Assembly: GCA_017441295.1 (NCBI GenBank) | Contig: JAFRYA010000012.1 | Location: 13,714 to 77,713, forward strand | DNA length: 64,000 nucleotides | Direction: 5' to 3' | Source of the DNA: Lachnospiraceae bacterium | Lineage (GTDB): Bacteria; Bacillota; Clostridia; Lachnospirales; Lachnospiraceae | In this document: positions 10,217 to 53,416 of the stretch, piece by piece | Position numbering within the stretch: position 1 is the stretch's first letter | Layout of the letters: the number at the start of each line of letters is the position of its first letter | Position numbers and translations under genes: made by a program | The notes under the pieces: model-generated | What the model saw: only the letters and a program-made list of their open reading frames with translations | Database searches by the model: none | What the model was told of the DNA's origin: nothing

Positions 10217-10229
10217 TAAAACTGAGTGC

Positions 10230-11300
10230 TTATTCAACCTTCGCGAATATTTCTTCGATGGTCATGTCTTTAGTAAATCCCAGGTTCTCAAGGGTTCTGC
10301 CTTCTGCAAAGTAGTCTACTCCATTGATTACTCCCGCAATCTTAATGAATGCTTCCAGTGTCGGCATCTCAAGTCCGAGCTTCTTGGCCATTGATACAGC
10401 AAAAGCTCCGCCGCATCCGCAATCCTCATGCAGATATCTGTGATCCAGCGCGTTAGGGCCGTCCATGAATTCGTAGAAGATGCGAACTTCAGGATGCTCA
10501 TCGATGTGCGCGATCTTGTTAGCCATGCCTGTTGGCTCACCGTGAACCTGCCATCCAAGAGCTTCGATGACCGGCTTGCGCTCCTCAGCGATCTTCTCAA
10601 CGCACTTCATAACAGAAGGTGTGAAAGCGAATTTGAACAGTGAGAACGCATCGCCCGTCCTGTCGATCTGCGGTGCGGAAAGTGTGGTGGTTGCAACATG
10701 GTTTACAACATTGCCTGTATTCATTGCAGCTTCAAATACATTCTGGTTAGCAGCATACTCGAAGATGCCATTCAGTTTTTCAAGAACCTTGGCTGTGTCT
10801 CTGGCCGGAAGTGAGCAGACCTTGCCCTTTCTGTTCAGAGGATTGCCAACAGTAACTTCTGCAGGCATTGACAGTCTGCATGGTCCTAAGTTGCCTTCCT
10901 TCTCTGTAAGGGTGACCTTGGCGGTTACGCCCATCTCTTCGAAAACTTTCTTAAATACAAATGATCCGAGGTTGCCCGGGAACAGGATGATGTCCTGGCC
11001 GTCCTCAACGTAAGGCGCGATCCTTCTGGCAATCTCTTCCTGACGCATTGACGGAACATGAACGAAGATCAGCTCAACGCCCTTTACTGCCTCAGCGAAG
11101 TCAGTGGTAACCAGCTTAGGTGTGCCGGTTCCATGGTTGTTTCCGCGCAGTGTGATAAATCCAACTTTCTTAACTGCTTCCAGAGCGTCAGCAAAACGCT
11201 CGTCATCGCAGAAATTAACTTCTACACCATTCATTGCCAGCAGGCATGCCATATAGTGGCCTGTTGCGCCTGCGCCTAAAACTGCAGCTGTCTTAAACAT
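10230..11300 (-). CDS. NAD(P)-dependent opine (octopine/nopaline) dehydrogenase family protein
   Basis: Rossmann motif AAVLGAGATGH and C-terminal HRYLHEDCGCGGAFAVSMAKKLGLEMPTLEAFIKIAGVINGVDYFAEGRTLENLG, which matches my memory of the Octopine_DH helical domain. Confidence 0.78.
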   Translation of the reverse strand: MFKTAAVLGAGATGHYMACLLAMNGVEVNFCDDERFADALEAVKKVGFITLRGNNHGTGTPKLVTTDFAEAVKGVELIFVHVPSMRQEEIARRIAPYVEDGQDIILFPGNLGSFVFKKVFEEMGVTAKVTLTEKEGNLGPCRLSMPAEVTVGNPLNRKGKVCSLPARDTAKVLEKLNGIFEYAANQNVFEAAMNTGNVVNHVATTTLSAPQIDRTGDAFSLFKFAFTPSVMKCVEKIAEERKPVIEALGWQVHGEPTGMANKIAHIDEHPEVRIFYEFMDGPNALDHRYLHEDCGCGGAFAVSMAKKLGLEMPTLEAFIKIAGVINGVDYFAEGRTLENLGFTKDMTIEEIFAKVE

Positions 11301-11549
11301 ATGTCTACACTCCTTTTTTGATAAAAATCGGTATATTACTCTATGCTGATTATAGGTTTTCAGTGGTGCTCAAACAATACGCCATCCCCCAATTTGTTAA
11401 CGGAATAATTGGTATGTGTATTATCAAAATAAATAGTGTCTAATATTTTTGCTATCAGTATCAAAAAATACCATTTTTATCATAGCTGCTTATCAATGAT
11501 AATTATATTGATTTAATTTAATACTTTTTTGAGAAAGGAAGATCTGAAT
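11301..11549. promoter_or_regulatory. Divergent promoter/operator region with repeated TTATCA-type motifs and an ATCAAT-N9-ATTGAT palindrome
   Basis: GATAAAAATcGGTAT occurs at about 11320 and, inverted, at about 11466-11482. TTATCA occurs 4 times. The palindrome is at 11492-11512, 38 nt before the ATG at 11550. Confidence 0.35.
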
Positions 11550-12272
11550 ATGTACGGCTGGCGAGCAAAAATGGGCCTGATCACACCGATGAGCGAGAAC
11601 GCTGAGCATGCGTTCCACATTTACGCTCCTGAAGGCGTGAGCTTTGCCTCAATGAAAATCGTTTTCCCGGGACCTACCCCGGAAGGACTTATTGTCTTAA
11701 CCGATCAGTTAGAAGAAACTGCCGCGAAATACAAGGGCTATGACCTGGACCTTGTCATCTTCGGCTGCACCTCCGGTTCCTGCATTAAGGGCATCGGCTG
11801 GGATAAGGAGCTGATCGCAAAAATGGAGAAAGTTACAGGAGGCATTCCTGCCATCACAACCAGCACCGCTGTGCTCGAAGCTTTTGAAAAGCTGGGCACT
11901 AAAAAGGTAGCTGTACTGACACCATACCCGGAAGCAACAAACATTATCGAGAAGAAATTCCTGGAAGACAATGGCTACGAAGTAACCAACATCGTTGGAA
12001 TGGACATGAGTGAATGGACCGCCCAGGGCCACAAGTTCGAATGGGCCAGCGAGGACTTCCTCTACAAGATGGCGGTAAACATGGACCTGAAGGGTGCTGA
12101 CACATTCTTCCTCTCCTGCATGGGACTGACCACCATGGAAATCATCAAAGACCTTGAGACATACATGGAGATTCCTTGCGTAACAAGTCACCAGGCGACC
12201 TTATGGTCCGCCCTCAGGCACTGCAGAGTCGGCGCCAAAAGGGATGACCTCGGCAAGCTGTTCACACTGTAA
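11550..12272 (+). CDS. Asp/Glu/hydantoin-racemase superfamily protein, maleate cis-trans isomerase / arylmalonate decarboxylase-like
   Basis: YGWRAKMGLITP, FGCTSGS and FLSCMGL supply the two candidate catalytic Cys. Start set at the ATG after AAGGAAG rather than the upstream TTG. Confidence 0.75.
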   Translation: MYGWRAKMGLITPMSENAEHAFHIYAPEGVSFASMKIVFPGPTPEGLIVLTDQLEETAAKYKGYDLDLVIFGCTSGSCIKGIGWDKELIAKMEKVTGGIPAITTSTAVLEAFEKLGTKKVAVLTPYPEATNIIEKKFLEDNGYEVTNIVGMDMSEWTAQGHKFEWASEDFLYKMAVNMDLKGADTFFLSCMGLTTMEIIKDLETYMEIPCVTSHQATLWSALRHCRVGAKRDDLGKLFTL

Positions 12273-12284
12273 AGGAGGAGACCA

Positions 12285-12998
12285 ATGTATAGCAAAAGAG
12301 CAAGGATCGGAGTTATAGCTCCAATAGACGACCAGGTTGAATACGCTTTTAACAAATACGCGCCGGACGGTGTGTCATTTGATTCAACCAGACTGTGGTT
12401 CCCGGGACCTACTCCTGAAGGACTCATCTACCTCTCCAACCAGGTTGAGGAAGCTGCCAAGATGTATACCAAACTGCCGCACGACGTCATCCTCTTTGGA
12501 TGTACTTCAGGCAGCTGCATCAAAGGCTTTGGCTGGGACAAAGAACTCATTGCCCAGATTGAAAGGGCCAGCGGATGCAAGGGACTGACCACATCCACCT
12601 GCGTTCTGGACGCATATAAAGCACTCGGTGTTAACAAGACCGTCGTAATGACGCCTTACCCGGATGCTACAAATGAAGCTGAAAAGAAATTCATGGAAGA
12701 TAACGGCATCGAAGTGATATCCATCACCGGCGTCGGATTCAACCCAATGAAAACATACGGATACAAACATGCCGACACGACATTCCTGTACAGGGCCGCC
12801 AAGGCTCTGGACATGACAGGCGCGGATTCATTCTTCCTCTCCTGCATGGGATTGTCCACCATGGAGCTCTGCCGCATCTTCGAAGAAGATTTCGGCATCC
12901 CTGTTATCACCAGCCATCAGGCTTCCCTCTGGGGATGCCTCAGAGCGGCAGGCATCAAGGACAAGCTCGAAGGACTCGGCAAATTACTTACTATCTGA
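12285..12998 (+). CDS. Asp/Glu/hydantoin-racemase superfamily protein, paralog of the preceding gene
   Basis: Same motifs (ARIGVIAP, FGCTSGSCIKG, FLSCMGLSTME). Roughly half the residues are identical to 11550..12272 by eye. Confidence 0.75.
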   Translation: MYSKRARIGVIAPIDDQVEYAFNKYAPDGVSFDSTRLWFPGPTPEGLIYLSNQVEEAAKMYTKLPHDVILFGCTSGSCIKGFGWDKELIAQIERASGCKGLTTSTCVLDAYKALGVNKTVVMTPYPDATNEAEKKFMEDNGIEVISITGVGFNPMKTYGYKHADTTFLYRAAKALDMTGADSFFLSCMGLSTMELCRIFEEDFGIPVITSHQASLWGCLRAAGIKDKLEGLGKLLTI

Positions 12999-13010
12999 AA
13001 GGAGATATAA

Positions 13011-14390
13011 ATGGCTTTTTCACAGATCAAGTACGATACAGACTATACAAAGCAGATCGTAAGCTGGGTCAAAAACCTGAAGTATGAAGATATTCCTCCG
13101 ATGGTTGTTGACCGTGTAAAGATGTTTATGATCCATTGCTGCGGTGTTTCACTGTGTGCAAAGGATATTAAAGGAATGCAGAAAGCAATAGAAATTGCGA
13201 AAGAGATCTCTCCTGGCAAAGAGGGCGATGCGACCCTCTGGGGCGATGGTGCAAAGGTTAGCCCTGAGGCCGCCCTCTTTGCCGCTTCAGCTATGGCTGA
13301 CTGCCTGGACTGGGAAGACTGTGCCATCACCGGCCATCCGACAGCAGGTGTTATTCCTACCGCAGTAATTATGGGCGAAGCACTCCATAAGAGCGGCAAG
13401 GAAGTCCTGACAGCAGCAGTCGCAGCCTATGAAGCATATCTGCGCATTTCCCTCGCAGGCAGGAGCGGAATCTCCAGCTATAACATTTTCGGAAACCTGA
13501 CCCTTCTCATGAAGCTCATGGACCTCGATGAGGAGAAGATGAACCAGCTCTACGGCATCGGCTGCACAATGGCAAGCACCCCTGCCAACGTACATGAGCT
13601 CACAATGTCCGACTCCCTCAACTTCATTTACGGCCTGCGCGGAAATGAATGCGTTACCGCTCTCAGAATCGTAATGAGCGGCATTGAAAACCTCGAGGAC
13701 GGTTTTGACATTCCATACGTTTATTACAACCACTGCGCATATTACAAACCTGAGATCCTTACAATGGACCTCGGAACACGCTGGATGCTCATGGACAGCC
13801 TGCTGATGAAGCATCACCCGGGCAACATGTTCGTCCAGACATATGAAGAAATTGCTCACAGGCTGCTCGCCAAGTACCATTTCAAGGCGGAAGATATTGG
13901 AGAAGTCATCATCAGGCCTTCCATCGCTTTCAGAAACTGGTACACCAAGACAGGCTACAAATCAATTACTCAGGCACAGTTCTCTATCCCGTATACAGTA
14001 GCTGTAGCCCTGACATATGAAGAGCCTGGCGCTAAATGGTACAGTGATGAGACCATGAACGATCCTAAGATCATTGAACTGCTCAACAAGGTCAAGGCAG
14101 ACGGCTTCGTTGACGTCAAGGGCCTCGACGTGCTGAAAGACCTTATGGACGGCAAACATCCGGAGAAGCATATTATTGTCCGCATGAAGGACGGTACTGA
14201 ATATGAGGACAGCCTCTTCACCCATCCGGGACATCCTAACTATATGCTGACCCGCGAGGAAGTTGTTGAAAGATTCAAGCTTGAAACAAAGTATGTGCTG
14301 GCTCCTGAGACAGCTGACAAGTTTATTGAAACAGCTCTTAAATACGACCAGCTGGATGACGTGGCAGAACTGCCTAAATACATTTACTAA
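13011..14390 (+). CDS. MmgE/PrpD-family protein (2-methylcitrate dehydratase-like fold), paralog 1
   Basis: N-terminal YEDIPPMVVDRVKMFMIHCCGVSL, 459 aa, and a length and pattern typical of the PrpD family. Confidence 0.85.
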   Translation: MAFSQIKYDTDYTKQIVSWVKNLKYEDIPPMVVDRVKMFMIHCCGVSLCAKDIKGMQKAIEIAKEISPGKEGDATLWGDGAKVSPEAALFAASAMADCLDWEDCAITGHPTAGVIPTAVIMGEALHKSGKEVLTAAVAAYEAYLRISLAGRSGISSYNIFGNLTLLMKLMDLDEEKMNQLYGIGCTMASTPANVHELTMSDSLNFIYGLRGNECVTALRIVMSGIENLEDGFDIPYVYYNHCAYYKPEILTMDLGTRWMLMDSLLMKHHPGNMFVQTYEEIAHRLLAKYHFKAEDIGEVIIRPSIAFRNWYTKTGYKSITQAQFSIPYTVAVALTYEEPGAKWYSDETMNDPKIIELLNKVKADGFVDVKGLDVLKDLMDGKHPEKHIIVRMKDGTEYEDSLFTHPGHPNYMLTREEVVERFKLETKYVLAPETADKFIETALKYDQLDDVAELPKYIY

Positions 14391-14401
14391 GGAGGCCGGA
14401 C

Positions 14402-15880
14402 ATGAGATACAACAGATTATATCTTGATAACGATTTTTTAACTCCTACCACATATACACAGGATCTGAGCGAATATTCAGAGAATCTGAAGTTTGAAGAC
14501 CTTCCTGAAGAAGTAGTAGAAAGAGCCAAGAGGATCATGGTCCACTGCATCGGCGCGGCCATTGCGTCCGTAGGCACTGAAGTCCATAAAAAGGCTTTTG
14601 ACGCTGCAGTTAAGGCTAACGGCGGTGAAGGCGGTCCTGTAACCGTTTGGGGAACAGGCACCAAGCTCAGCGCTGTTAACGCCGGATTCCTCATGGGAGT
14701 CATGGCTGACGCTCTCGATTGGGAAGACTGCTCATGGACAGGCCATCCTTCAGCAGGCGCTGTACCTGATGCATGGGCAGCTGCTGAGGAAAAACACAGA
14801 TCAGGCCGGGAAATGCTGACCGCCATCGTTGACGCATATGAAATCTACCACCGAATTGCCATGTCAGTTCAGCCAAATCTGGAAAGACGCCAGAAAAACG
14901 GCTGGGGACTTACCAGCTGGCAGATCTTTGCTTCACTGATCCCATATGCCAAGCTGTATGGTTTTGACGCGCGTAAGACTAACCAGGCCATCAGCATGGC
15001 ATGCGAATGCGCCCCTGTTCCGTCAGATTTCCATCAGCTGACCATGTCAGACCATTATCATTATGAGCACGGCTACAGAAACCGCGACGGCGCAATCATC
15101 GCCAAGTCTGTTGAGGCAGGCATTAACAACTGCCGCGACGCTCTGGATGAGCCTAGATGCTATCTGGGCACAATGTGCGGCGATTCAGCTAAGAACGGCT
15201 CTTCTCTCAGAACTGAGCTGGAAGACAAGAAAGAATATGACATTACCTGGCTCACCAGAGACCTGGGCAAGAGATATTTCATCATGGATACACTGCTCAA
15301 GCACTGGCCTGCAAACATGTGGGTACAGACTCCGCTCGAGCTCCTGGATATCCTCCAGAAGAAATACGGTTTCGGTCCGGACGATATTGAATCCATCGTA
15401 CTCGACCCGCCTGTAAAGAGACGCATGTGGGCTTCACCGGATGGATTTGAATCCATTACACATGCGCAGTTCTCTATTCCTTACGTTCTTTCCAGAAGAC
15501 TCCTGGATCCTGTTCCGGGCGCTTACTGGTACACAAAGGACAAGATGAAAGATGCCAGGGCTGCTGAGCTGTCACTGAAGGTTAAAGGCGGTCCGTCACC
15601 TGAGGAATCACCATATGACGGATTCACGCTCTTCCAGCAGGGCAGCTATCCGATGAGAACCCTTACCGTTACTACTAAAGACGGTCATACATATACTGAA
15701 TCCATGGACTGCCATCCGGGTCATCCTGCCAATATGATGTCCCGCGAGGAGCTCTCAGACAGATTCAGGCTGCAGGCCAAAGGCATCCTGCCGGATGAAA
15801 AGATTGAGAAGGCACTGGACGCTCTTTGGAACATAGAAAAGGCTGAGGACATTGCAGCTGTTTCAGATCTCCTCTGCTGA
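14402..15880 (+). CDS. MmgE/PrpD-family protein, paralog 2
   Basis: FEDLPEEVVERAKRIMVHCIGAAIAS, DWEDCSWTGHPSAG, 492 aa. Confidence 0.85.
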   Translation: MRYNRLYLDNDFLTPTTYTQDLSEYSENLKFEDLPEEVVERAKRIMVHCIGAAIASVGTEVHKKAFDAAVKANGGEGGPVTVWGTGTKLSAVNAGFLMGVMADALDWEDCSWTGHPSAGAVPDAWAAAEEKHRSGREMLTAIVDAYEIYHRIAMSVQPNLERRQKNGWGLTSWQIFASLIPYAKLYGFDARKTNQAISMACECAPVPSDFHQLTMSDHYHYEHGYRNRDGAIIAKSVEAGINNCRDALDEPRCYLGTMCGDSAKNGSSLRTELEDKKEYDITWLTRDLGKRYFIMDTLLKHWPANMWVQTPLELLDILQKKYGFGPDDIESIVLDPPVKRRMWASPDGFESITHAQFSIPYVLSRRLLDPVPGAYWYTKDKMKDARAAELSLKVKGGPSPEESPYDGFTLFQQGSYPMRTLTVTTKDGHTYTESMDCHPGHPANMMSREELSDRFRLQAKGILPDEKIEKALDALWNIEKAEDIAAVSDLLC

Positions 15881-15896
15881 ACCGGAAAGGAAAGAC

Positions 15897-17174
15897 ATGA
15901 ATACTATTGCTATTATCGGATTCGGTGGCGCAGGCTACAACGCGGCCAGAGCAATACGTAAAAAGGACAGTGAGGCTCTCATCGATGTATATTCAGACTC
16001 CGCCAAAGGCCCATACTGCCCTATGCTGACCACCTATTTCGTTAAAGGTTCGATTCCTTTGGAAGCAATGTATCCGTTCGGAACAATTGACGAAATCCAA
16101 AAGGAACTGAACACTAATTTCTACAACAAAACAGTCACAGCCGTAAAGGGTGCCGAAAAGTGCATCGTTACCGATGACGGCACCGAAAAGGCATATGACA
16201 ATATAATTATCACAACAGGTTCATCGGCCATTATGCCTCCTATACCGGGGCTTGACCTGCCGGGAGTTTTCAAGATGCGCACAGACGCAGATGCCCTGTA
16301 CCTCAAAGAACTCCTGGATTCAGACAAAGCCCGGACCTGCCTGGTCATCGGTGCTTCCTGGGTAGGCATAAAAGTCGTTGAAGATACCGTCATGGCCGGT
16401 CTTGAGACAACTCTTGTGGACGGCGCTGACTGGATGTTCATAACAGCGGCATTTGAGGAGACTTCCTTAAGAGCCCAGAAATATCTTGAATCAAAAGGCG
16501 TCAGGGTTTCATGCGGCGAAATGCTGGATCATATTGAGCAGGAATATGACGGTTCTCTGACCGCTTTAATGAAAAGCGGTGACCGCTTTAATGCTGACTG
16601 CATCGCAATCTGCATAGGTGTCCGCATGAATACCGGGTTCCTTAAGGACAGCGGCATTGCCATGAACCGGGGCGTTATCGTTGACAAGAAGATGCAGACG
16701 AACATCCCCGGCATTTATGCCGCAGGCGACTGCTGCGAATCGATCGACAGCCAGTCCGGTACAAACATGAATATCGGAGTCTGGGCCAACGCCCAACAGC
16801 AGGGAGCTGTCGCAGGAGTAAATGCAGCAGGCGGCAATCAGGAATTTGACGCCAATATCCTCATCAATCTGGCACATTTCCTGGATTATGACTTCCTGGC
16901 CTATGGCAATATCAGACTCTGCTCTCCTGATGACGACTGGTATGAATATGAGGATGAGAAATACTACATCAAAGCCTGCAGGGGACAGGACGGAAGCATC
17001 AAATGCGTGAACATTACAGGTTCCGCTGATATTAACGGATTATTTAAGAATAACTTTATAAAGGGACTTATTGAGGGCGAAACATCATTTAATGTTAAAG
17101 CGGCATGTCAGATGCGTGACAAAGGCGTACCTCAAAGCTTTATAGACTTCTTGGGAGGAATAAAAATTGACTGA
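15897..17174 (+). CDS. FAD-dependent pyridine nucleotide-disulfide oxidoreductase (NADH oxidase / CoA-disulfide reductase-like)
   Basis: IAIIGFGGAGYNAA, redox-Cys context KGPYCPMLTTYF, second dinucleotide fold VIGASWVGIK, AAGDC. Start at ATG 15897 after GGAAAGGAAAG. Confidence 0.85.
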   Translation: MNTIAIIGFGGAGYNAARAIRKKDSEALIDVYSDSAKGPYCPMLTTYFVKGSIPLEAMYPFGTIDEIQKELNTNFYNKTVTAVKGAEKCIVTDDGTEKAYDNIIITTGSSAIMPPIPGLDLPGVFKMRTDADALYLKELLDSDKARTCLVIGASWVGIKVVEDTVMAGLETTLVDGADWMFITAAFEETSLRAQKYLESKGVRVSCGEMLDHIEQEYDGSLTALMKSGDRFNADCIAICIGVRMNTGFLKDSGIAMNRGVIVDKKMQTNIPGIYAAGDCCESIDSQSGTNMNIGVWANAQQQGAVAGVNAAGGNQEFDANILINLAHFLDYDFLAYGNIRLCSPDDDWYEYEDEKYYIKACRGQDGSIKCVNITGSADINGLFKNNFIKGLIEGETSFNVKAACQMRDKGVPQSFIDFLGGIKID

Positions 17175-19329
17175 TTTAGAGAAAAAAATTAAAGCCAAAA
17201 TTCCTGGAGAAGACACAGGAATCGAAGTAAAGCACGCCATGTGCTCCATCTGCAGTCCCGGTATGCATTGCGGTGTGGACTGCTACGTAAAGGACGGCCG
17301 GATCATAAAAGTTGAAGGTATGGAATCCCATCCCTGGAGCAAAGGCAAAATCTGCGTAAAAGGCCAGTCAGGCCGTGATTATGTCTACAGGGAAGACAGG
17401 ATCAAAACCCCTCTTAAGCGCGTTGGCGCAAGAGGTGAAGGCAAGTTCGAGCCTATCAGCTGGGACGAAGCCATCGCTATGATCGCGGAAAACCTTAATA
17501 AAGTCAAAGCCGAGTACGGCCCTGAAAGCGTTATGTTCCTGTCAGGCTACTGCAAATGGTACAGACCATGGCTACACAGGATGGCACATGTTTTCGGCAC
17601 ACCGAACTTCGGAACCGATGACTGCAACTGCTCTGCCGCAATGGTTGTTGCCAACAAGTGCACATCAGGCACAGGCGGCGGCGCAGACTTCGGAAAATGC
17701 AATACATTCTTTGGCTGGAACTACGACGGTTATTATTCAAACCACATGAACGTAGCTTCTGTTAAAGGAGTAAAGAAAAGGGGCGGCAAGGTGATCATTA
17801 TTGACATCCGCGAAACCCCTGCAGTAAAGAACCTCGCAGATATCTTCGTTCAGATCAATCCCGGAACTGATGGTGCCCTGGCACTCGGAATGGCCAACGA
17901 GATCATAAAGAACGGTTGGGAAGACAAAGAATATGTTGAGAAATATACTCACGGTTTCGCGCAGTATAAGGCTCTCTGCGCTGAATATGACCTGGACAAG
18001 GTTGAAGCCATTACAGGCGTTTCAAAAGACATGATCAAAGAGCTCGCAAGACTCTACGCCTGCGAAGGCCCTACAGCCTGCAACTACTCTGCTTCAGCGC
18101 TCGTTCATCATATTAACGGCTTTAACGCTCACAGGGCTGTTCTCTGCCTCTCAGCGTTAACCGGCAATTTTGACAGGGCCGGCGGACAGGTTCCGGTACC
18201 TGTCACTTACCTTCACAAGAGCGCAGGCTTCAGTACCAGAGAAGCTGAATTCCGTTCAAGCGCGGATCCAAGAAAGACCAATCCGGACTGCAAGAGGATC
18301 CTGGGTGCAGACAGATTCCCGTTATGGGAAGAAAAGTTTGATGAGACCCAGACAATGGACCTGCTGCACCAGCTCACCACGGATGAGCCTTATCCGATCA
18401 GAGCCATTTACGCTCACGGCATGAATGTCAAGATGTATCCGGAGAGCGACAATCTGGCCAGGGCAATGGCTGAGAAACTGGACTTCTTCGTTCTCACCGA
18501 TCTCTTCATGACATATACGGCCAAGTGGGCTGACCTCGTGCTGCCTGCATGCTCCAGTTTCGAAAGATCAGAGATCAAATGCTACGCCGGCGGATACGCT
18601 GTGTTTACAGAACCTGTCATCCAGCCTCTGTATGAGTCCAGATCAGACGTTGATATCATTTACGATGTTTACCATGCGCTGGGCCTCAAAGACGAATTAA
18701 TGGACCTCGGATATGAGGGTTCGATAGATTGGATGTTTGACGGCTGCGGAACATGCGTTTCTGAGCTCAAAAATGGCCATAATATGCCTCTTAAGGTTCC
18801 GAATGCAAAATGGCCCGTTGCTCCGGGAAAACAGCTGGAAAACGGATTTAAGACGCCTACAGGCAAGTTCGAATTCTATTCAGAGTCAATTGCCAAGGTT
18901 GATAAGAAGTACGGCCTCGATCCGCTGCCTGTATACTACGATTCCCTGGCTGACGAGCCGGATCCTGAAGGCAGATATCCATATTACCTCTGCACCGGCG
19001 CCAGATTGTCTATCTCACTTCACAGCAGGGTCCATGAGGTACCATACCTCAGGCAGCTGAGAAAGCATCCTATGTGTGAAGTCAACATGGAAGACATGAA
19101 GGCTCTCGGCCTCAAAGACGGCGACGACGTGGTGCTTTACAGCCCTCATGGCGAGATCACCGTCAAAGTACACGGCACATTTAAGATCAAACCGGGTGTG
19201 ATACTCATGCTCCACGGATATACAGAAGCAAATGTCAACCTGCTCGAAGGCAGAGACCATCTGGATCCGTATTCAGGATATCCGGGACACAAGGGAATGC
19301 GCTGCAACATTCGCAAGGAGGTGAAATAA
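17167..19329 (+). CDS. Molybdopterin (bis-MGD) oxidoreductase catalytic subunit, DMSO-reductase superfamily, no Tat signal
   Basis: N-terminal 4Fe-4S motif CSICSPGMHCGVDC...IKVEG. 720 aa, uninterrupted (no in-frame TGA). TTG start is preceded by GGGAGGA and overlaps the upstream gene by 8 nt. Confidence 0.85.
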   Translation: MTDLEKKIKAKIPGEDTGIEVKHAMCSICSPGMHCGVDCYVKDGRIIKVEGMESHPWSKGKICVKGQSGRDYVYREDRIKTPLKRVGARGEGKFEPISWDEAIAMIAENLNKVKAEYGPESVMFLSGYCKWYRPWLHRMAHVFGTPNFGTDDCNCSAAMVVANKCTSGTGGGADFGKCNTFFGWNYDGYYSNHMNVASVKGVKKRGGKVIIIDIRETPAVKNLADIFVQINPGTDGALALGMANEIIKNGWEDKEYVEKYTHGFAQYKALCAEYDLDKVEAITGVSKDMIKELARLYACEGPTACNYSASALVHHINGFNAHRAVLCLSALTGNFDRAGGQVPVPVTYLHKSAGFSTREAEFRSSADPRKTNPDCKRILGADRFPLWEEKFDETQTMDLLHQLTTDEPYPIRAIYAHGMNVKMYPESDNLARAMAEKLDFFVLTDLFMTYTAKWADLVLPACSSFERSEIKCYAGGYAVFTEPVIQPLYESRSDVDIIYDVYHALGLKDELMDLGYEGSIDWMFDGCGTCVSELKNGHNMPLKVPNAKWPVAPGKQLENGFKTPTGKFEFYSESIAKVDKKYGLDPLPVYYDSLADEPDPEGRYPYYLCTGARLSISLHSRVHEVPYLRQLRKHPMCEVNMEDMKALGLKDGDDVVLYSPHGEITVKVHGTFKIKPGVILMLHGYTEANVNLLEGRDHLDPYSGYPGHKGMRCNIRKEVK

Positions 19330-19847
19330 TGAAAAAGGTATTTACTTTTGATCAGGACCAGTGCTGTGCCTGTGGATGCTGCGTTGTGGCATGCACAGAC
19401 CAGAACGACATAGATTTAAGATGCGGAGACATTCCGTTCAGAAAGACTTTCGATGACGAATTTGCCACAGCAGACGGCCACTACAGCGCATACATTTCAG
19501 CTGCATGCATGCACTGCGTTGACGCTCCGTGCATCACTGCATGCCCTGTTGGCTGCATTTCCAAGGATCCTGAAACAGGATTCACCATCTACGACAATAC
19601 CAACTGCATCGGCTGCAAGTCCTGCGCAATGGCCTGCCCGTTCGGCGCGCCGAGATACAGACACTCAGACGGCAAGATGGTAAAATGCGACGGATGCAAC
19701 GAAAGAGTCAAAGCCGGCCTCAGACCGGCATGCGTCAAGGCATGTCCGTTTGGAGCCCTGGATTGTGTGGATGAAGAAGAATATCTCGCTTCAGGCTCAA
19801 ACAAAGCATGCAATGTGCTGATCCACAATCTTGATTTAAGATTCTGA
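19329..19847 (+). CDS. 4Fe-4S dicluster ferredoxin-type electron-transfer subunit (DmsB-like)
   Basis: Four Cys clusters: CCACGCCVVAC, CMHCVDAPCITACP, CIGCKSCAMACP, CDGC...CVKACP. TAATG overlap with the catalytic subunit. Confidence 0.87.
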   Translation: MKKVFTFDQDQCCACGCCVVACTDQNDIDLRCGDIPFRKTFDDEFATADGHYSAYISAACMHCVDAPCITACPVGCISKDPETGFTIYDNTNCIGCKSCAMACPFGAPRYRHSDGKMVKCDGCNERVKAGLRPACVKACPFGALDCVDEEEYLASGSNKACNVLIHNLDLRF

Positions 19848-19863
19848 TCCGCAGTTGATTACG

Positions 19864-19888
19864 GCCCTCCCTTCGGGGAGGGCTTTTT
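19864..19888 (+). terminator. Rho-independent terminator of the + strand cluster
   Basis: gccctccc/ttcg/gggagggc followed by TTTTT. Confidence 0.85.
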
Positions 19889-19940
19889 ATTTGTTCCTCC
19901 TGACCGGACACATGTGCTATACTCTTTTCAGGAGGACGCA

Positions 19941-20711
19941 ATGCTTATCAAAGATATAAATGATCCTGTATTGACAGTTTATAAAGATCTGAAGGAATCT
20001 CAACTGAAGCATTATTACGAGCCTGAGGCAGGCCTTTTCATCTGCGAAAGCCCGAGGCTGATAAAGAGGGCTCTGGATGCGGGCTATCTGCCTGAATCAT
20101 TCCTGGCAGACCCTGATGCACTGAGTGAAGATGACCTGAATCTTCTTAATGGAGCTCCGGTCTATACCGCGCCGGTTGAAATACTTACCACAATCACCGG
20201 CTACCATCTCACTGAGGGCATGCTCTGCGCAATGCGCAGAAAGCCCCTGCCCGCTCCTGAACAGGTGCTTACAGGCAGGCGCGTTGTGGTTCTCGAGGAC
20301 ATTGAAAACCCAACGAATGTTGGCGCTATCTTCCGCTCTGCAGCTGCTTTGGGAATGGACGCAGTCCTTTTGACAGAAGGATGCGCAGACCCGCTATACC
20401 GGCGCGCAGCCAGGGTCAGCATGGGCGGCGTATTTCAGATTCCATGGACCTATATCCCATCACTGGATATCTTGAAAGCATTGGGTTATAAAATGGCTTC
20501 CATGGCACTGTCTGACCATACAGTCTCCATAGACGATCCGTTGCTGATGGCAGAAGAACATCTTGCTATTCTGCTCGGAAATGAAAACAATGGTCTCCTC
20601 CCGGAAACCATTGCTGCGAGTGACTATATAATTAAGATTCCAATGGCGAATGATGTTGATTCGCTGAATGTGGCAGCTGCCGCCGCGATCGCATTCTGGC
20701 AGCTCAGATAA
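19941..20711 (+). CDS. TrmH/SpoU-family RNA 2'-O-methyltransferase
   Basis: NPTNVGAIFRSAAALG, LLGNENNGL, IPMANDVDSLNVAAAAAIAFW. ATG at 19941 follows AGGAGG. Confidence 0.85.
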   Translation: MLIKDINDPVLTVYKDLKESQLKHYYEPEAGLFICESPRLIKRALDAGYLPESFLADPDALSEDDLNLLNGAPVYTAPVEILTTITGYHLTEGMLCAMRRKPLPAPEQVLTGRRVVVLEDIENPTNVGAIFRSAAALGMDAVLLTEGCADPLYRRAARVSMGGVFQIPWTYIPSLDILKALGYKMASMALSDHTVSIDDPLLMAEEHLAILLGNENNGLLPETIAASDYIIKIPMANDVDSLNVAAAAAIAFWQLR

Positions 20712-20746
20712 AAAAGGATCCGCCCGAAAGCGGATCCATTTTTTAT
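20711..20746. terminator. Bidirectional intrinsic terminator
   Basis: aaaaa ggatccgc/ccgaaa/gcggatcc atttttt, lying between convergent genes. Confidence 0.8.
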
Positions 20747-21948
20747 TTCTCTTTCTTTACATCTTTGATAGTTAAGTTGATCACCAGTCCGATCAGTGAC
20801 AGGGCCATCAGGATGATGAACGGGATCAGGTATCCGCCTGTCTTCTCAGCGATGACACTGCACAGTGTAGCAATCAGGGATGCTACCAGCAGGTTGCAGG
20901 AGCAGATGCTGAGGTTTGTCGGGAAGTATTTGTCGCCAAAGAACATTCTGGTTGCAACAGCTGTACCGGTCGGGCATGTACCAAGTGTGGCACCTGACAG
21001 GCAGAGTGCAACGATACAGATCGGCAGTGACTGTGTAATAGGTGTAAGGATGCAGAATCCGGAAGCGATGATTGCCAGGATGCTGCTTATGATCATGGAT
21101 TTACGTCTGCCCAGGCTGTCGAAGAGGAATCCGATAATGATTCTGCTGAGTCCGTTGCAGACTGCGAACATACCAACCATTGTGGTCGCCAGTGAATCAG
21201 AGCCGCCTGCACCGATAGTCATATCCTTTGCAACGCTGGCAACAACATTGCCGACTGCTGTAAGGAATACCAGCAGAATGAAAACACGCCAGAAGACAGA
21301 AGTCTTGACCATTTCCTTAACAGTGTAATCCCTGGCTGCTGAGTTGGCTGCCTGCTTCTGAGGAACTGCAGGGATTTCTTCAGGCTTAGGAGCCCTGATA
21401 ATAAGGCCTGCAATGATCAGGATCACGCCGATAGCGATGCCGAGGATCATGAAGGTTGTTCTCCAACCGATAATTCCGAAAAGTGAATTGGAAACATTGC
21501 CGATAATAAGTGTGCTGGCGCCGAATCCCATCATAAGGATGCCTGAGCACAGTCCCTTCTTATCAGGGAACCATGCATTAATGGTGGAAACCAGTACATT
21601 GTACGCAATACCGATGCCAATGCCTGAAATTATTCCGTAGAAAATATAAAGTGCTGCAATAGCTGTTCCTGACAGTGCGAAAGAAGTTACTACGAATCCG
21701 CCGCCGCCGAGGATCGCCGCGATGATAACAGTCAGCGTAACGCCGAGCTTTTTGGATATCAGACTGCCGATGATACCGCCCACGCAGAAGAATACCATCG
21801 TAAGTGTGAAGTTAACAGTAAGCTGTGAATTGCTCCAGCCAAATTCCTGGCCGAGAGGCATTTTGAGTACGGACCATGTATAAATAACGCCTGCGAACAG
21901 CATGGCAATGGTTCCGACTACCAGATATACCCATCTTTTAGCTTTCAT
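20743..21948 (-). CDS. MFS transporter, oxalate/formate antiporter (OFA)-like
   Basis: 12-TM-like hydrophobic profile, 401 aa, N-terminus KRWVYLVVGTIAMLFAGVIYTWSV typical of OFA-family MFS proteins. Confidence 0.8.
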   Translation of the reverse strand: MKAKRWVYLVVGTIAMLFAGVIYTWSVLKMPLGQEFGWSNSQLTVNFTLTMVFFCVGGIIGSLISKKLGVTLTVIIAAILGGGGFVVTSFALSGTAIAALYIFYGIISGIGIGIAYNVLVSTINAWFPDKKGLCSGILMMGFGASTLIIGNVSNSLFGIIGWRTTFMILGIAIGVILIIAGLIIRAPKPEEIPAVPQKQAANSAARDYTVKEMVKTSVFWRVFILLVFLTAVGNVVASVAKDMTIGAGGSDSLATTMVGMFAVCNGLSRIIIGFLFDSLGRRKSMIISSILAIIASGFCILTPITQSLPICIVALCLSGATLGTCPTGTAVATRMFFGDKYFPTNLSICSCNLLVASLIATLCSVIAEKTGGYLIPFIILMALSLIGLVINLTIKDVKKEK

Positions 21949-22093
21949 TTTTTAAGTCTCCCCTTTTTGTATAATTCTCAACCATTATAAACAACTCCGC
22001 ATAAAAAAGTAAATGTGTATGGTTATTGATTTTTTGGTGTCTATATCAATTTTTTTTATACATTTTGCTTTGTTTTTCCCTCTTTAGGGCTAA

Positions 22094-22256
22094 GTTTAAT
22101 TCTGATTTTATAATTCGAGCTGTTTTACTACTGTGCTGCTCTTTTATTATACAGCTGAATATTCGACTAAACCGACGTGGAGAATATTCGGCTGTATAAT
22201 AAAAGAGCTGTTACACAGCAGTGCAACAGCTCTCATTAATAAAATCAGAATTAAAC
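22094..22256. repeat. 163-bp near-perfect palindrome with a conserved 19-nt apical loop (copy 1 of 2)
   Basis: Core: 22139-22163 pairs with 22183-22207 (25 bp, one T-G); loop CGACTAAACCGACGTGGAG at 22164-22182. Outer arms 22094-22110 and 22240-22256 are perfectly complementary (17/17). Confidence 0.7.
22196..22232 (-). terminator. rplQ intrinsic terminator, embedded in the right arm of the palindrome
   Basis: The minus strand reads GAGCTGTTgcac-tgct-gtgtAACAGCTC followed by TTTTATTAT. Confidence 0.6.
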
Positions 22257-22787
22257 AAGCTCGATAAGTACTTCCATTGCGCCATCACCTTTGCGTTGGC
22301 CAATCTTTACGATTCTTGTGTATCCGCCGTTACGGTTAACATACTTCGGAGCAACATTGTCGAACATATGTGCAACCATATCAACATCTTCAGTATTTCT
22401 CTTCCTGCCGGCTGCCTTCTCAGGAACCTTCTTTACAGGATAGAACACCTTCAGCATCTCTCTTCTTGCATGAAGACGGGATGGAGCATCTTTCTTGATC
22501 TTCTTGTCAACTTCGTCAAAAACTGTTACCTTCTTGCCGTCAACAACTTCTTTGATGCGCTTGCCGTCTTTGTCCTTACGGGCAACTTTAGCTTTAACAG
22601 TTACTTCTTCAAAATTATCTTTTTCCTTAACAGCAAGGGTGATAAGGTGCTCAGCTACTCTGCGGATCTCCTTAGCCTTTGCTTCTGTAGTTGTAATTTT
22701 GCCATTGTATAATAAAGCAGTAACCTGGTTACGGATCAAAGCCTTTCTCTGACTAGATGTTCTTGACAGTTTTCTATATCCGGCCAT
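22251..22787 (-). CDS. rplQ: 50S ribosomal protein L17 (long form, 178 aa)
   Basis: N-terminal GYRKLSRTSSQRKALIRNQ and C-terminal NGGYTRIVKIGQRKGDGAMEVLIELV. Lys-rich insertions lie between them. Confidence 0.92.
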   Translation of the reverse strand: MAGYRKLSRTSSQRKALIRNQVTALLYNGKITTTEAKAKEIRRVAEHLITLAVKEKDNFEEVTVKAKVARKDKDGKRIKEVVDGKKVTVFDEVDKKIKKDAPSRLHARREMLKVFYPVKKVPEKAAGRKRNTEDVDMVAHMFDNVAPKYVNRNGGYTRIVKIGQRKGDGAMEVLIELV

Positions 22788-51724: not shown

Positions 51725-51742
51725 CTAATAATTGTATTTTTT

Positions 51743-51773
51743 GAACCGCCACGTTTTTGTGGCGGTTCTTTTT
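51743..51773 (+). terminator. purB rho-independent terminator
   Basis: gaaccgccac/gttttt/gtggcggttc followed by TTTTT. Confidence 0.85.
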
Positions 51774-51838
51774 ATGTGGGATGGCCGCATGTCCGACTAA
51801 ACTGACGTGGAGGGCAGGCGGCCATTCCTGCATAAAAA
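51769..51838. repeat. Hairpin with the conserved 19-nt apical loop (copy 2 of 2)
   Basis: About 25-bp stem (3 T-G/G-T pairs, 1 mismatch, 1 bulge). Loop CGACTAAACTGACGTGGAG at 51794-51812 matches copy 1 at 18 of 19 positions. The stem sequence is unrelated to copy 1. Confidence 0.7.
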
Positions 51839-51868
51839 AGGACCGCCACACAAAAAGTGTGACGGCCC
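51834..51868 (-). terminator. Rho-independent terminator of the FAD-oxidoreductase gene
   Basis: The minus strand reads gggccgtcacac/ttttt/gtgtggcggtcc followed by TTTTTT. Confidence 0.8.
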
Positions 51869-51880
51869 ATAAAAATATTA

Positions 51881-53416
51881 TTAATTTTTCAGAGATTCAT
51901 TCTCACCTGTCTTGTAGTTTGTATCCTGACGGAATCCCTTTACGTATTCCTCACCTTCAGCCTTTGCCTTCTTAGCTGCATCGGTGTACAGACCATACTC
52001 AAACTCTTCAACCAGGTCGGTGTAGCTCTTGTCGGTATGTTCGTTTCTTGGCAGAGGAACGTCCTGCTCGCCAGCCAGAATATCCTGAACCTTCTTAACA
52101 TTTACGTGGTGGATATCTGTGCCGTCCAGAACTGCAACTGCTGCTGCAACACCTGCTGCCTGGCCTGTGCCTGTGCACTGCGGAATCAGGTTCAGCCAGT
52201 CAATAGCGATATTGTCAGCTGACAGATGACGTCCCGGAGCCAGGAGGTTCTCGCAGCCTTTAGCTGTGATAGCGCCTAGAGGTATCTCAACAGGACCGCA
52301 GTCATTAATCTGGCAGATAGTTGAATGCCATGCGATTACATCGTCATGCTTCTTAGCGAAAGCGAAGTCGTCTGTATGCATAATATACTCACCCTGAAGT
52401 CTTCTGGAGCACCTTACGCCTGCCTGCGGAGCAATGTCGTAGAGGTATGCATTCCTGAATGCTACAGGTACAGCTTCTCTCATGTACTGGATAACCTTGT
52501 CGATCGTCAGTCTGGTGTTGACCTCGGTATCTGTCAGATCTTTAACATTGGAGCAGTCTCTGTTTGTATGCCAGTTGTTCATCCAGCATACTGTATTGTC
52601 ATTGGTCGGCAGAGGCAGGATTCTGAATCCGGCAACCTTCATAAGGCCTTCCTTGAATGCAGGAACTACATCCGGATGAGCCAGCTGCCACTCATAATAG
52701 TTATCCCAGTTAATGCCGCCGATCCTGTAGACCAGGGATGTTGTTGAGGATCTGCATACAGCGTCTGCCAGTGTCTGGAACTCAGCGCCTGACTGGCAGT
52801 AGATGTCGCCGTCGCCTGTTGCATCGATTACCTGTTTAGCCAGGATAGCCTTGCGGCCTTCCTTGGACTCGAAAATAACGCCCTTGATAACTTTGTTCTC
52901 AACGATAGGAGTTACGCCCCAGGAATGATATAACAGCTGGATGCGGTCTCTCTCTTCGTAGATCATCTCGTCAAATACTATGCGCATGTACTGTGGGTCG
53001 AAGTACGGTGCCCTAACGAGCATGGATTCCTTGCATCCGCCGAATGTACCGCGGCTGACACAGTCATGGATAGCTCTCCAGCGATGCAGAAGTGCCGGAT
53101 CTGTTGAGCCGATCTCGTCAAGTGACGGAGCCAGAACTGAGCCCGGGAACTCTTTGGCTGAACGTGTGAACCACTCTTCCTGGATGCCCCTTACGAAGCT
53201 TTTGTTCCTCCATGAGAGGTTCGGGAGCATTACTACATAACCGCCGGTTGCGTCACCGCCCATGTAACCGTAACGCTCTAAAAGGATTATATTCTTTGCG
53301 CCTGCACGGGCTGCTGCTAATGCAGCTGCCTGGCCTGCTGCACCTGCGCCTACAACCAGTATGTCGCACTCTGCATATACAGGTATGTCGCGGGCTGCCT
53401 CATGATAAACTGCCAT
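51881..53416 (-). CDS. FAD-dependent oxidoreductase (FAD_oxidored/pfam12831-like)
   Basis: CDILVVGAGAAGQAAALAAARAG...LLERYGYMGG, 511 aa. Confidence 0.8.
   Translation of the reverse strand: MAVYHEAARDIPVYAECDILVVGAGAAGQAAALAAARAGAKNIILLERYGYMGGDATGGYVVMLPNLSWRNKSFVRGIQEEWFTRSAKEFPGSVLAPSLDEIGSTDPALLHRWRAIHDCVSRGTFGGCKESMLVRAPYFDPQYMRIVFDEMIYEERDRIQLLYHSWGVTPIVENKVIKGVIFESKEGRKAILAKQVIDATGDGDIYCQSGAEFQTLADAVCRSSTTSLVYRIGGINWDNYYEWQLAHPDVVPAFKEGLMKVAGFRILPLPTNDNTVCWMNNWHTNRDCSNVKDLTDTEVNTRLTIDKVIQYMREAVPVAFRNAYLYDIAPQAGVRCSRRLQGEYIMHTDDFAFAKKHDDVIAWHSTICQINDCGPVEIPLGAITAKGCENLLAPGRHLSADNIAIDWLNLIPQCTGTGQAAGVAAAVAVLDGTDIHHVNVKKVQDILAGEQDVPLPRNEHTDKSYTDLVEEFEYGLYTDAAKKAKAEGEEYVKGFRQDTNYKTGENESLKN

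What the first reader, a model, noticed from the sequence alone, without database searches (positions are those of the whole stretch)
22094..22256. 163-bp palindrome capped by a conserved 19-nt loop at the 3' end of the ribosomal protein cluster (element copy 1)
A 25-bp stem (22139-22163 paired with 22183-22207) has a single T-G pair. It carries the loop CGACTAAACCGACGTGGAG. The inverted symmetry continues outward to perfectly complementary 17-nt arms at 22094-22110 and 22240-22256. The right arm contains the rplQ stop codon and the rplQ terminator hairpin. The left arm therefore looks like an inverted copy of the gene's own 3' flank. The same loop, with a different stem, occurs at 51794-51812. 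There is no coding capacity, and this is not a canonical terminator because the T and A runs are paired inside the stem. It could be a structured ncRNA, a protein-recognised DNA or RNA hairpin, or a miniature palindromic mobile element that targets terminator regions.
Basis: seen in the sequence. Interest (0 to 1): 0.65.

Follow-up and report, generated by a model that had tools for sequence, protein, structure and literature searches.

The report
Terminator-side palindromes sharing one conserved centre
Two long DNA palindromes in this rumen/gut Lachnospiraceae genome belong to a small, undescribed repeat family: a conserved ~39-base hairpin centre sits just after a gene's terminator, and its long arms are a mirror-image copy of that gene's own 3' end.

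Summary
Both window copies (22094-22256 and about 51726-51880) are the only long palindromes in 64 kb, and both centre on CGACTAAAC[C/T]GACGTGGAG.

More copies occur in metagenome contigs, giving six loci in all. Both window copies are present in all 17 further contigs of the same species that cover their sites, from ENA and NCBI assemblies.

Only about 39 nt is shared between loci: GCYG-N2-T-N3, the 19-20-nt loop, then N3-A-N2-CGGC. The outer arms are locus-specific. One arm is the native stop codon, terminator and last codons of the adjacent gene. The other arm is its inverted copy. A sister species with the same rplQ-MFS gene order has a 100-nt spacer with a plain terminator (empty site).

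The arms stay paired through double changes (19 of 26 pairs). A sister species carries a different loop type at both orthologous loci.

There is no match in Rfam, in 185,579 representative genomes, or in the plasmid and viral collections. It is not a classical MITE, a REP element or an attC site.

Best reading (moderate confidence): a DNA-level hairpin element whose arms were built and are kept matched by fold-back template switching during replication. Some mirror arms now serve as terminators. The enzyme and any host function are unknown.

The parts
22251..22787 (-). rplQ (ribosomal protein L17), the source gene of copy 1. Its last codon and stop codon (GTT TAA) lie inside the palindrome.
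   Evidence: ORF. PF01196 assignment. The native C-terminus ...IELV* and the sequence after the stop codon are shared with sister species L154.
22183..22256 (-). Native arm of copy 1. It holds the rplQ stop codon, the 3' spacer, the intrinsic terminator (22203-22234), the T-run and the inner stem half (22183-22208).
   Evidence: The stretch is 99.8% identical in L001 up to the end of the T-run. It is homologous to the L154 3' flank.
22164..22182 (+). Conserved asymmetric centre (loop) of copy 1: CGACTAAACCGACGTGGAG.
   Evidence: The sites of the loop that vary among copies are 8, 10 and 11 in the window's loop type. The model R1 scores this copy at 73.9 bits.
22154..22192 (+). Family-defining core of copy 1 (about 39 nt): GCTG-AA-T-ATT, the loop, then AAT-A-TT-CGGC.
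   Evidence: Invariant columns of alignments A2 and A4.
22094..22163 (+). Mirror arm of copy 1, an inverted duplicate of the rplQ 3' flank. It comprises the mirrored stop codon (22094-22111, perfect), a decayed mirrored terminator (about 22113-22145), and the inner stem half (22138-22163).
   Evidence: The arm is absent from the sister species, whose rplQ-MFS spacer is 100 nt against 302 nt here.
51794..51812 (+). Conserved centre (loop) of copy 2: CGACTAAACTGACGTGGAG.
   Evidence: R1 score 71.9 bits.
51813..51883 (-). Native arm of copy 2. It holds the inner stem half, the A-run, the terminator (about 51840-51868) and the stop codon (51881-51883) of the FAD-dependent oxidoreductase gene 51881-53416.
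   Evidence: The native C-terminus GENESLKN* is conserved in orthologues from other species that lack the element.
51725..51793 (+). Mirror arm of copy 2. It starts right after the purB stop codon (51722-51724) and contains a hairpin plus T-run (about 51743-51773) that now acts as the purB terminator.
   Evidence: In other strains (L054, L136) this arm still carries GAATGAATCTCTGAAAAATTAA, the mirror of the oxidoreductase's last codons and stop. The window has a 10-nt deletion there.

Best explanation
This is a lineage-restricted, DNA-level palindromic repeat.

The unit shared between loci is a hairpin of about 39 nt. It has a GCYG/CGGC box, a 2-nt internal mismatch, four more base pairs, and a 19-20-nt asymmetric loop with fixed ends (CGACTAA ... 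TGGAG). It lies a few bases beyond the T-run of an intrinsic terminator.

Proposed mechanism:
1. The hairpin lets a newly made DNA strand fold back on itself during replication. The strand then copies the sequence it has just made. This adds an inverted duplicate of the gene's T-run, terminator, stop codon and last 1-20 codons on the far side of the hairpin.
2. The same intrastrand template switching later carries changes from one arm to the other, so the arms stay complementary while their sequences drift.
3. The result is a palindrome of 150-225 bp whose two halves both end in terminator hairpins. Where a convergent gene is present, the mirror terminator has been taken over as that gene's terminator (purB at copy 2).

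Shown: the anatomy, the host origin of the arms, an empty site, paired double changes, and a strand bias of wobble pairs.

Inferred: that the core arrives by insertion, that fold-back synthesis makes the arms, and that the loop is kept because a protein reads it.
For: 1. The arms are host sequence.
- The L002b right arm encodes the conserved HKWLKENG of a YgjP-like peptidase, and the left arm is its mirror.
- The L156 mirror 2870-2902 copies coding bases 2682-2714.
- The mirror arm of copy 2 in L054 and L136 contains the last codons and stop of the oxidoreductase gene.
- The outer arm of copy 1 contains the GTT TAA of rplQ.

2. There is an empty site. Sister species L154 has rplQ followed by 100 nt with a plain terminator and then the MFS gene. 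The window has 302 nt. Other relatives also have plain terminators after rplQ.

3. Only the centre is shared between loci.
- 19 of 26 stem pairs change on both sides.
- 89% of cells are paired, against 68% after shuffling and about 45% with partners slid.

4. Within the species, copy 1 has two haplotypes that differ by a mirrored 2-bp block, ACAG/CTGT against ATCG/CGAT. A recombinant haplotype (L152) carries the mismatch.

5. Non-Watson-Crick pairs are strand-biased. There are 10 G.T cells against 2 A.C cells on the strand that reads CGACTAA... The 2 A.C cells lie in the rows whose outer-stem register is disturbed by indels, W2 and L005.

6. The centre is bracketed by terminators on both sides. 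No mobile-element gene or conserved promoter lies near it.

7. Template switching is known to create, extend and maintain hairpins (PMC8794818, PMC13100816, PMC5941160).
Against: - No insertion event, target duplication or cognate enzyme was seen, so mobility of the core is inferred only from its presence at six unrelated loci.
- Fold-back copying of 70-110 nt is much longer than typical quasipalindrome corrections.
- Decay along the copy 1 arms is uneven. The outer 18 nt are perfect and the inner 27 nt are 96% matched, but the mirrored terminator is only about 77% matched. Simple neutral decay after a single event does not predict this.
- The side on which the mirror lies, relative to loop orientation, is the same at 5 of 6 loci. 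At the sixth (L004) the mirror lies on the opposite side, because the FAH domain reaches residue 275 of 277 and so marks that arm as native.
- L155 has a palindrome with no core, and a different centre (X) inside the same arms at a second site. The arms could therefore predate the centres.
Confidence: 0.45

Rival explanations
1. The palindrome centres are landing pads. The mirror-image arms (bidirectional-terminator-like palindromes) arise first. Their single-stranded hairpin tips are then hit repeatedly by small, structure-targeting mobile inserts. The 19-20-nt loop with its GCYG box is one such insert and the ~143-nt element X is another.
For: - L155 carries a core-less palindrome at the YgjP 3' end.
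- At the position of L002a, and within the same outer arms (GCGCGATGGCTTTTTT / AAAAAAGAGAGCCATCGCGC), L155 has X instead of the core.
- L001 is 99.8% identical to the window through rplQ but has X-type sequence directly after the terminator T-run.
- The sister species L156 has its own loop type (AATGRGGR in place of AMCYRACG) at both orthologous loci. Independent insertion by a species-specific element explains this easily.
Against: - In the window, the only long palindromes are the two that contain the core.
- The sister-species site L154 has neither arms nor core, so arms without a core are not seen at the window's loci.
- L002b has two complete terminator hairpins flanking the core. That is not what insertion into the loop of a single terminator would give. 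L155 is explained more simply as a central deletion between the two terminator copies.
Confidence: 0.2
2. It is a structured RNA element in 3' untranslated regions, or an antisense RNA. In this view the hairpin with a protein- or RNA-binding loop is kept by selection, for example as a stabiliser, an RNase III site or a regulator. Template switching merely supplied the stems.
For: - Pairing is maintained strongly while the stem sequences differ.
- The loop ends and an inner box are invariant while the stems drift.
- G.U-compatible pairs occur on one strand only, and tandem A.G mismatches recur at a fixed place.
- Folding energy is far below that of shuffled sequence.
Against: - The strand that tolerates wobble pairs is antisense to the source gene at 5 of 6 loci. 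At copy 1 it has no upstream gene and no detected promoter.
- In both directions, transcription meets a terminator before the centre.
- There is no Rfam match.
- The family is confined to a few close species.
- The arms include mirrored coding sequence of arbitrary genes, which points to a mutational origin rather than a designed RNA.
Confidence: 0.17
3. It is a classical non-autonomous transposon (a MITE, or a REP/REPIN-type repeat) carrying its own terminal inverted repeats and moved by a transposase encoded elsewhere in the genome.
For: - It is repeated, palindromic, intergenic and sits next to terminators, like Correia, RUP, ERIC and REP elements.
- Weak resemblance between loci extends about 10-15 nt beyond the 39-nt core (..TG.GGGA..).
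Against: - The arms beyond the core differ between loci and demonstrably derive from local genes.
- I saw no direct-repeat target duplication at the boundaries when reading the sequence.
- There is no transposase or RAYT gene in the window.
- Copy number is low: 2 per 64 kb, and none in a further 1.3 Mb of relatives.
Confidence: 0.08
4. It is a chance palindrome, a strain-specific duplication or an assembly artefact.
For: None beyond the general tendency of assemblers to produce fold-back chimeras.
Against: - The same structures occur in 17 further contigs from different studies, with strain variants.
- Shuffles give 0.03 expected motif matches.
- Folding z-scores are below -8.
Confidence: 0.01

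Closest known systems
Hairpins created and maintained by template-switch mutations (quasipalindrome correction and inverted-repeat arm expansion; PMC8794818, PMC13100816, PMC5941160)
   Same: - One arm is an inverted copy of adjacent sequence.
- The arms change together in multi-nucleotide blocks.
- The palindrome extends outward from a seed hairpin.
   Different: - Here the same asymmetric ~39-nt centre recurs at six unrelated loci. Generic template switching does not predict that.
- The copied tracts are long (70-110 nt).
- The palindromes always start at an intrinsic terminator.
REP/BIME and REPIN elements mobilised by RAYT (TnpA-REP) transposases
   Same: - Intergenic hairpin repeats just downstream of genes.
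- Action as single-stranded DNA is suspected.
- They may affect termination or mRNA ends.
   Different: - In REP and REPIN elements the arms are the conserved part and the spacer varies. Here it is the reverse.
- There is no GTAG-type foot motif.
- No RAYT gene was seen.
- Copy number is low.
Integron attC sites
   Same: - Imperfect palindromes directly after a gene's stop codon.
- Structure is conserved more than sequence.
- One strand is functional.
- The internal bubble here is loosely reminiscent of the unpaired central spacer.
   Different: - attC conserves the outer R''/R' boxes (RYYYAAC ... GTTRRRY) and varies in the centre. Here the centre is conserved and the outer ends are host sequence.
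- There is no integrase gene and no cassette array in the window.
Bacterial MITEs (Correia/NEMIS, RUP, ERIC, bcr1)
   Same: - Short, non-coding, palindromic and repeated.
- Often located at terminators, where they can supply terminator or promoter activity.
   Different: - MITE copies share their terminal inverted repeats and have target-site duplications. These copies share only the centre and show no duplication.
Bidirectional intrinsic terminators between convergent genes
   Same: - Copy 2 lies between convergent genes.
- Each arm ends in a G+C-rich hairpin followed by a T-run on its own strand.
   Different: - The central hairpin has a T-run on its 5' side and an A-run on its 3' side on both strands, so it is not itself a terminator.
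- Copy 1 has no convergent gene, and its mirror terminator is decaying.

Membership tests
Any Rfam 15 RNA family | A score at or above the family's gathering threshold against its covariance model. | tested here: not met
   At gathering thresholds the window matches only the S10 leader at 37971-38062. An E-value scan of 21950-22300 gives only generic long-hairpin matches to miRNA and snoRNA models, far below their thresholds. Related loci give the same result.
Classical MITE | Terminal inverted repeats that are homologous between copies. | tested here: not met
   Beyond about 39 central bases the arms differ between loci and match the local gene's 3' end instead.
Classical MITE | A direct target-site duplication flanking each copy. 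| tested here: inconclusive
   Reading the boundaries of copy 1 (..ttttatt|ataca.. and ..gaattaaac|ttagcc..) shows no direct repeat of 4 nt or more. The true insertion boundaries are uncertain.
REP / REPIN (RAYT-mobilised) | Conserved REP arms of about 20-25 nt in inverted pairs with a variable spacer, plus a RAYT gene in the genome. | tested here: not met
   Conservation is in the centre, not in the arms. No Y1/HUH transposase is among the window's genes scanned with Pfam. The rest of the genome could not be examined.
Integron attC | R'' (RYYYAAC) and R' (GTTRRRY) boxes at the base of the hairpin, and a nearby intI/attI or a cassette array. | tested here: not met
   The base of each palindrome is host coding or spacer sequence that differs between loci. 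The outer ends of copy 1 (GTTTAAT...ATTAAAC) are in the wrong order and each fail one position. There is no integrase in the window.
Intrinsic (Rho-independent) terminator | A G+C-rich hairpin followed directly by a T-run on the transcribed strand. | tested here: not met
   The central hairpin has its T-run 5' and its A-run 3' on both strands, and the runs pair with each other. The scan calls only the native rplQ terminator at 22203-22234. The flanking arm hairpins do meet the definition.
Template-switch-generated inverted repeat | One arm is the reverse complement of sequence that is native next to the other arm, and an outgroup lacks the copy. | tested here: met
   The native 3' flank of rplQ is conserved in L154, which lacks the mirror. 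Mirror arms copy conserved coding sequence of YgjP-like, oxidoreductase and FAH-family genes.
Template-switch-generated inverted repeat | Multi-nucleotide changes that appear simultaneously on both arms. | tested here: met
   The copy 1 haplotypes ACAG/CTGT and ATCG/CGAT occur within one species.
Site-specific recombination (att) site of an integrative element | The element integrates within the conserved core and splits it into attL and attR. | tested here: not met
   The 7.6-kb integrase- and relaxase-bearing element in L135 is inserted in the outer mirror arm of copy 2 (..AATTTTAATTT | TTCAGAGATTC..). The core is left intact.

The most novel reading that the evidence does not exclude
The most novel reading not excluded is a new kind of bacterial repeat: a self-templating mobile hairpin.
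- A centre of about 40 nt would be read as single-stranded DNA by an unknown enzyme.
- It would settle just past intrinsic terminators and build its own long arms by fold-back copying of the host gene's 3' end, donating a second terminator.
- Its loop would be rewritten in concert across all copies of a genome. This would account for the species-specific loop types at orthologous loci, perhaps through a multicopy single-stranded DNA or a master copy.
- It would compete with a second centre type (X) for the same palindrome tips.
Probability: 0.2. Interest if true: 0.8.

Novelty: new variant of a known kind. Interest (0 to 1): 0.6.

Why it matters
If the reading is right, a tiny conserved hairpin can remodel the 3' ends of ordinary genes. 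It duplicates stop codons, terminators and even C-terminal codons in mirror image, supplies terminators to neighbouring genes, and may give a neighbouring gene a new C-terminal tail (L004).

That would be a concrete, datable natural case of replication template switching producing palindromes of 150-225 bp in bacteria, seeded by one specific sequence.

Two features are not explained by known repeat families and could lead to an unrecognised enzyme that acts on single-stranded DNA:
- The loop type is species-specific at orthologous loci.
- A second centre type (X) alternates with the core at the same sites.

On the practical side, such palindromes break short-read assemblies and can be mistaken for ncRNA genes or miRNA-like hairpins.

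Tried and rejected
Searches that found nothing useful:
- The exact 19-mer against one genome for each of 185,579 species gave 0 hits.
- A 14-base core against viral contigs gave 47 hits, none with a hairpin, so all are chance.
- The sister-species loop type against viral contigs gave 0 hits.
- Of 5 metagenome hits, 2 (L003 and L006) are chance matches in G+C-rich sequence with no stem.
- A covariance model of the core found no further members. It was run on the window with filters off and on 1.3 Mb from 80 related Lachnospiraceae and other loci.
- BLAST of the core and of X against plasmids gave nothing.

Ideas considered and dropped:
- A group II intron (class C, which targets terminators) as the sequence after the rplQ terminator in L001, because it contains GTGCG. 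Rfam gives no intron match, and the sequence turned out to be the palindromic repeat X.
- The core as an attachment site for the integrative element in L135. The element sits in the outer arm, not in the core.
- Homology between X and the core. They share a GCCGAA.G box and ACTAA, but local alignment is no better than shuffles (p about 0.1-0.7).
- Solo half-sites of the inner box in the window. The excess over shuffles is mild, and every extra match is coding-sequence noise.
- A strict rule that the native arm always lies 3' of the loop as written. It holds at 5 of 6 loci and fails at L004.

Data I could not get:
- The DNA of the GCA_016648615.1 contig with identical RplQ and a 388-nt rplQ-MFS spacer could not be fetched.

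Full report
**1. The observation**

Copy 1 is as described.
- The inner arms 22138-22164 and 22182-22208 are 27 nt long and 96% complementary, with one T.G pair. They close the loop CGACTAAACCGACGTGGAG at 22164-22182.
- The symmetry continues outward, weaker across 22106-22135 and 22214-22243 (77%), to perfect 18-nt arms at 22094-22111 and 22239-22256.
- rplQ is on the minus strand at 22251-22787, so its last codon and stop codon lie in the right outer arm.
- The rplQ intrinsic terminator is at 22203-22234.
- The same loop, with one base changed, lies at 51794-51812.

The pattern is more than chance.
- The motif is expected 0.03 times by chance.
- Both regions fold 9-15 standard deviations below shuffled sequence.
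- They are the only long interrupted palindromes in the window.

**2. Organism and surroundings**

- The window encodes housekeeping genes: the S10-spc-alpha ribosomal cluster, ecfA-ecfA-ecfT-truA, clpXP, tig, purC-purB, thiI, RNase J and others. It also has two blocks of MmgE/PrpD-type metabolic genes. Among the 40 larger ORFs outside the ribosomal cluster that were scanned with Pfam, none is a transposase, integrase or reverse transcriptase.
- The nearest named genomes are Parasporobacterium MAGs from sheep gut, with RplQ 88% identical. Same-species contigs come from ruminant-gut MAGs labelled Lachnospiraceae bacterium.
- GC skew is negative on the plus strand throughout, so the minus strand is the leading strand.

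**3. More copies**

- The exact loop has no match in one genome for each of 185,579 species. It also has no real match in viral contigs.
- Metagenome contigs gave three real loci, L002, L004 and L005. L002 holds a second copy with one loop change.
- Together with the window this makes six loci: W1, W2, L002a, L002b, L004 and L005.
- Copy 2 is present at the orthologous site in seven contigs of the same species. Copy 1 is present in ten.
- A covariance model built on ten sequences finds nothing else in the window (filters off) or in 1.3 Mb from related Lachnospiraceae.
- The family is real, low in copy number, and confined to a few close species.

**4. What is shared and what is not**

Aligned on the loop, all copies share the following.
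- A GCYG/CGGC box.
- A two-base position that is often an A.G mismatch.
- A T-A pair, then three variable pairs.
- A loop with fixed ends, CGACTAA...(A/G)TGGAG.

Loop positions 8, 10 and 11 vary within the window's loop type. Everything outside these roughly 39 bases differs between loci yet remains paired.
- 19 of 26 stem pairs show changes on both sides.
- 89% of cells pair, against 68% after shuffling and about 45% when partners are slid.

**5. The arms are host sequence**

This is the main result.
- L002b: the right arm 387-410 encodes HKWLKENG near the C-terminus of a YgjP-like metallopeptidase (PF01863), and the left arm 186-209 is its mirror.
- L156: the orthologous locus in a sister species has a mirror at 2870-2902 that copies coding bases 2682-2714.
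- Copy 2: in strains L054 and L136 the purB-side arm contains GAATGAATCTCTGAAAAATTAA. This is the mirror of the last codons and stop of the FAD-dependent oxidoreductase gene. Its C-terminus GENESLKN* is conserved in orthologues that lack the element. The window has lost 10 nt of that mirror.
- L004: the arms reach about 30 nt into two convergent genes. The FAH domain runs to residue 275 of 277, so that side is the native one.
- Copy 1: the sister species L154 has the same gene order, rplQ then MFS. It shares the native GTTTAATTC.GATT..ATTAATG after the stop codon, but its spacer is 100 nt with a plain terminator, against 302 nt here. Other relatives also have plain terminators.

The right arm of copy 1 is therefore native. 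The core plus the left arm are an insertion that arose in this lineage.

**6. Signs of an ongoing DNA-level process**

- Within the species, copy 1 has two haplotypes that differ by a mirrored two-base block (ACAG/CTGT against ATCG/CGAT), by one loop base and by a terminator indel. Contig L152 is a recombinant that carries the resulting mismatch.
- Non-Watson-Crick pairs are strand-biased. There are ten G.T cells against two A.C cells on the strand that reads CGACTAA... Both A.C cells lie in the rows W2 and L005, whose outer-stem register is disturbed by indels. The hairpin therefore matters on that strand.
- Where no convergent gene exists (W1, L002b, L005), the mirrored terminator is decaying. 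At copy 2 it remains a clean hairpin plus T-run directly after the purB stop codon. It differs between strains by compensated changes, so it has been taken over as the purB terminator.
- The centre is always bracketed by a terminator on each side. Little transcription should reach it.

**7. Sister-species comparisons that complicate the picture**

- L156 (YgjP-like protein 88% identical) has both L002-type elements in the same places, with homologous arms. Both loops are of another type, CGACTAAAATGGGGGTGGAG and CGACTAAAATGAGGATGGAG. Seven parallel differences at two loci cannot be independent point mutations. Either the loops are homogenised within a genome, or each species' own element inserted separately into the same sites.
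- L155 (94% identical) has a palindrome with no core at the YgjP 3' end.
- At the L002a position, within the same outer arms, L155 has a different centre of about 143 nt, called X here.
- X also follows the rplQ terminator in L001, which is 99.8% identical to the window up to the T-run. X also lies about 170 nt from the core in L005.
- X is not in Rfam, plasmids or viral contigs. Its similarity to the core is not significant.

**8. Mechanism**

I favour a DNA-level hairpin element, in three steps.
1. The ~39-nt core comes to lie just past a terminator's T-run.
2. Once synthesised, its two halves let the nascent strand fold back and copy itself. This adds the inverted flank. The plus strand of the window runs against the leading strand, and in both window copies the mirror lies downstream in the direction of fork movement.
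3. Later switches keep the arms matched.

The literature documents such creation, extension and maintenance of hairpins by template switching (PMC8794818, PMC13100816, PMC5941160).

What remains inferred:
- How the core moves.
- What reads the loop.
- Whether the arms or the centres come first.

The landing-pad rival and the RNA-element rival remain open. A classical MITE, a REP element, an attC site, an att site, a terminator and an artefact each fail specific tests (see the membership table).

**9. Novelty and verdict**

- The ingredients are known: palindromic intergenic repeats and template-switch hairpins.
- The combination matches no family I could identify. It consists of a conserved asymmetric centre, arms made from the host gene's own 3' end, species-specific loops at orthologous loci, and alternation with a second centre type.
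- I rate it a new variant of a known kind, of moderate to good interest. There is about a one-in-five chance that it marks a new class of self-templating mobile hairpin.

Noticed in passing
L155:1527-1669; L001:1190-1287 (inverted); L005:2376-2471: A second palindromic repeat family, called X here. Its centre is about 143 nt with two small hairpins and sits inside long arms. It occupies the same palindrome centres as the 19-nt core in other strains: after the rplQ terminator in L001, and at the L002a position in L155. It has no match in Rfam, plasmids or viral contigs.
   Followed up: partly
L135:11690-19150: A 7.6-kb integrative mobilisable element carrying TnpV, PadR, FtsW/RodA, a MobA/MobL relaxase, an HTH_17 excisionase-like protein and a tyrosine integrase. 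In one strain it is inserted in the outer mirror arm of copy 2, between ..AATTTTAATTT and TTCAGAGATTC.., next to the purB stop codon. The core is intact.
   Followed up: partly
window 8237-21948: A block of about 14 kb lies between rplQ and ecfA-ecfA-ecfT-truA. It encodes two LysR regulators, an octopine-type dehydrogenase, two Amdase-like proteins, two MmgE/PrpD proteins, a pyridine-nucleotide oxidoreductase, a molybdopterin oxidoreductase with a ferredoxin, a SpoU methylase and an MFS transporter. Relatives have rplQ followed directly by ecfA (L055), or by MFS, an HTH gene and ecfA (L154). Copy 1 sits at one edge of the block.
   Followed up: partly
L155:1328-1437: A palindrome with no conserved core at the 3' end of the YgjP-like gene. 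Its arms include about 45 nt of coding sequence and its centre is the terminator loop. It is probably a central deletion of an L002b-type element, or else an ancestral state.
   Followed up: partly
L004:1-300: The mirror arms overlap the last ~10 codons of two convergent genes, a FAH-family hydrolase and an unidentified gene ending ..TLEDLLKK*. One gene appears to have acquired its C-terminal tail from the mirror copy of the other gene's 3' end, read in another frame.
   Followed up: partly
L152:1645-1950, compared with L144 and window 21949-22256: A recombinant haplotype of copy 1. The terminator and left stem half are of the window type. The loop and right stem half are of the L144 type. This leaves a 2-bp mismatch in the stem.
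   Followed up: yes
NCBI GCA_016648615.1 contig: A contig encoding an RplQ identical to the window's has an rplQ-MFS spacer of 388 nt, against 302 nt here. That is 86 nt of extra sequence at the element's site. The DNA could not be fetched.
   Followed up: no
window 37971-38062 (-): The S10-Clostridia ribosomal protein leader (RF03136, 73 bits) lies upstream of the S10 operon. It is the only Rfam match in the window at gathering thresholds.
   Followed up: no
window 22109-22114 (+): The mirror arm of copy 1 reads TATAAT where the native arm has the complement of TTAATG. This makes a perfect -10 hexamer, but there is no recognisable -35 element. It is probably coincidental.
   Followed up: no
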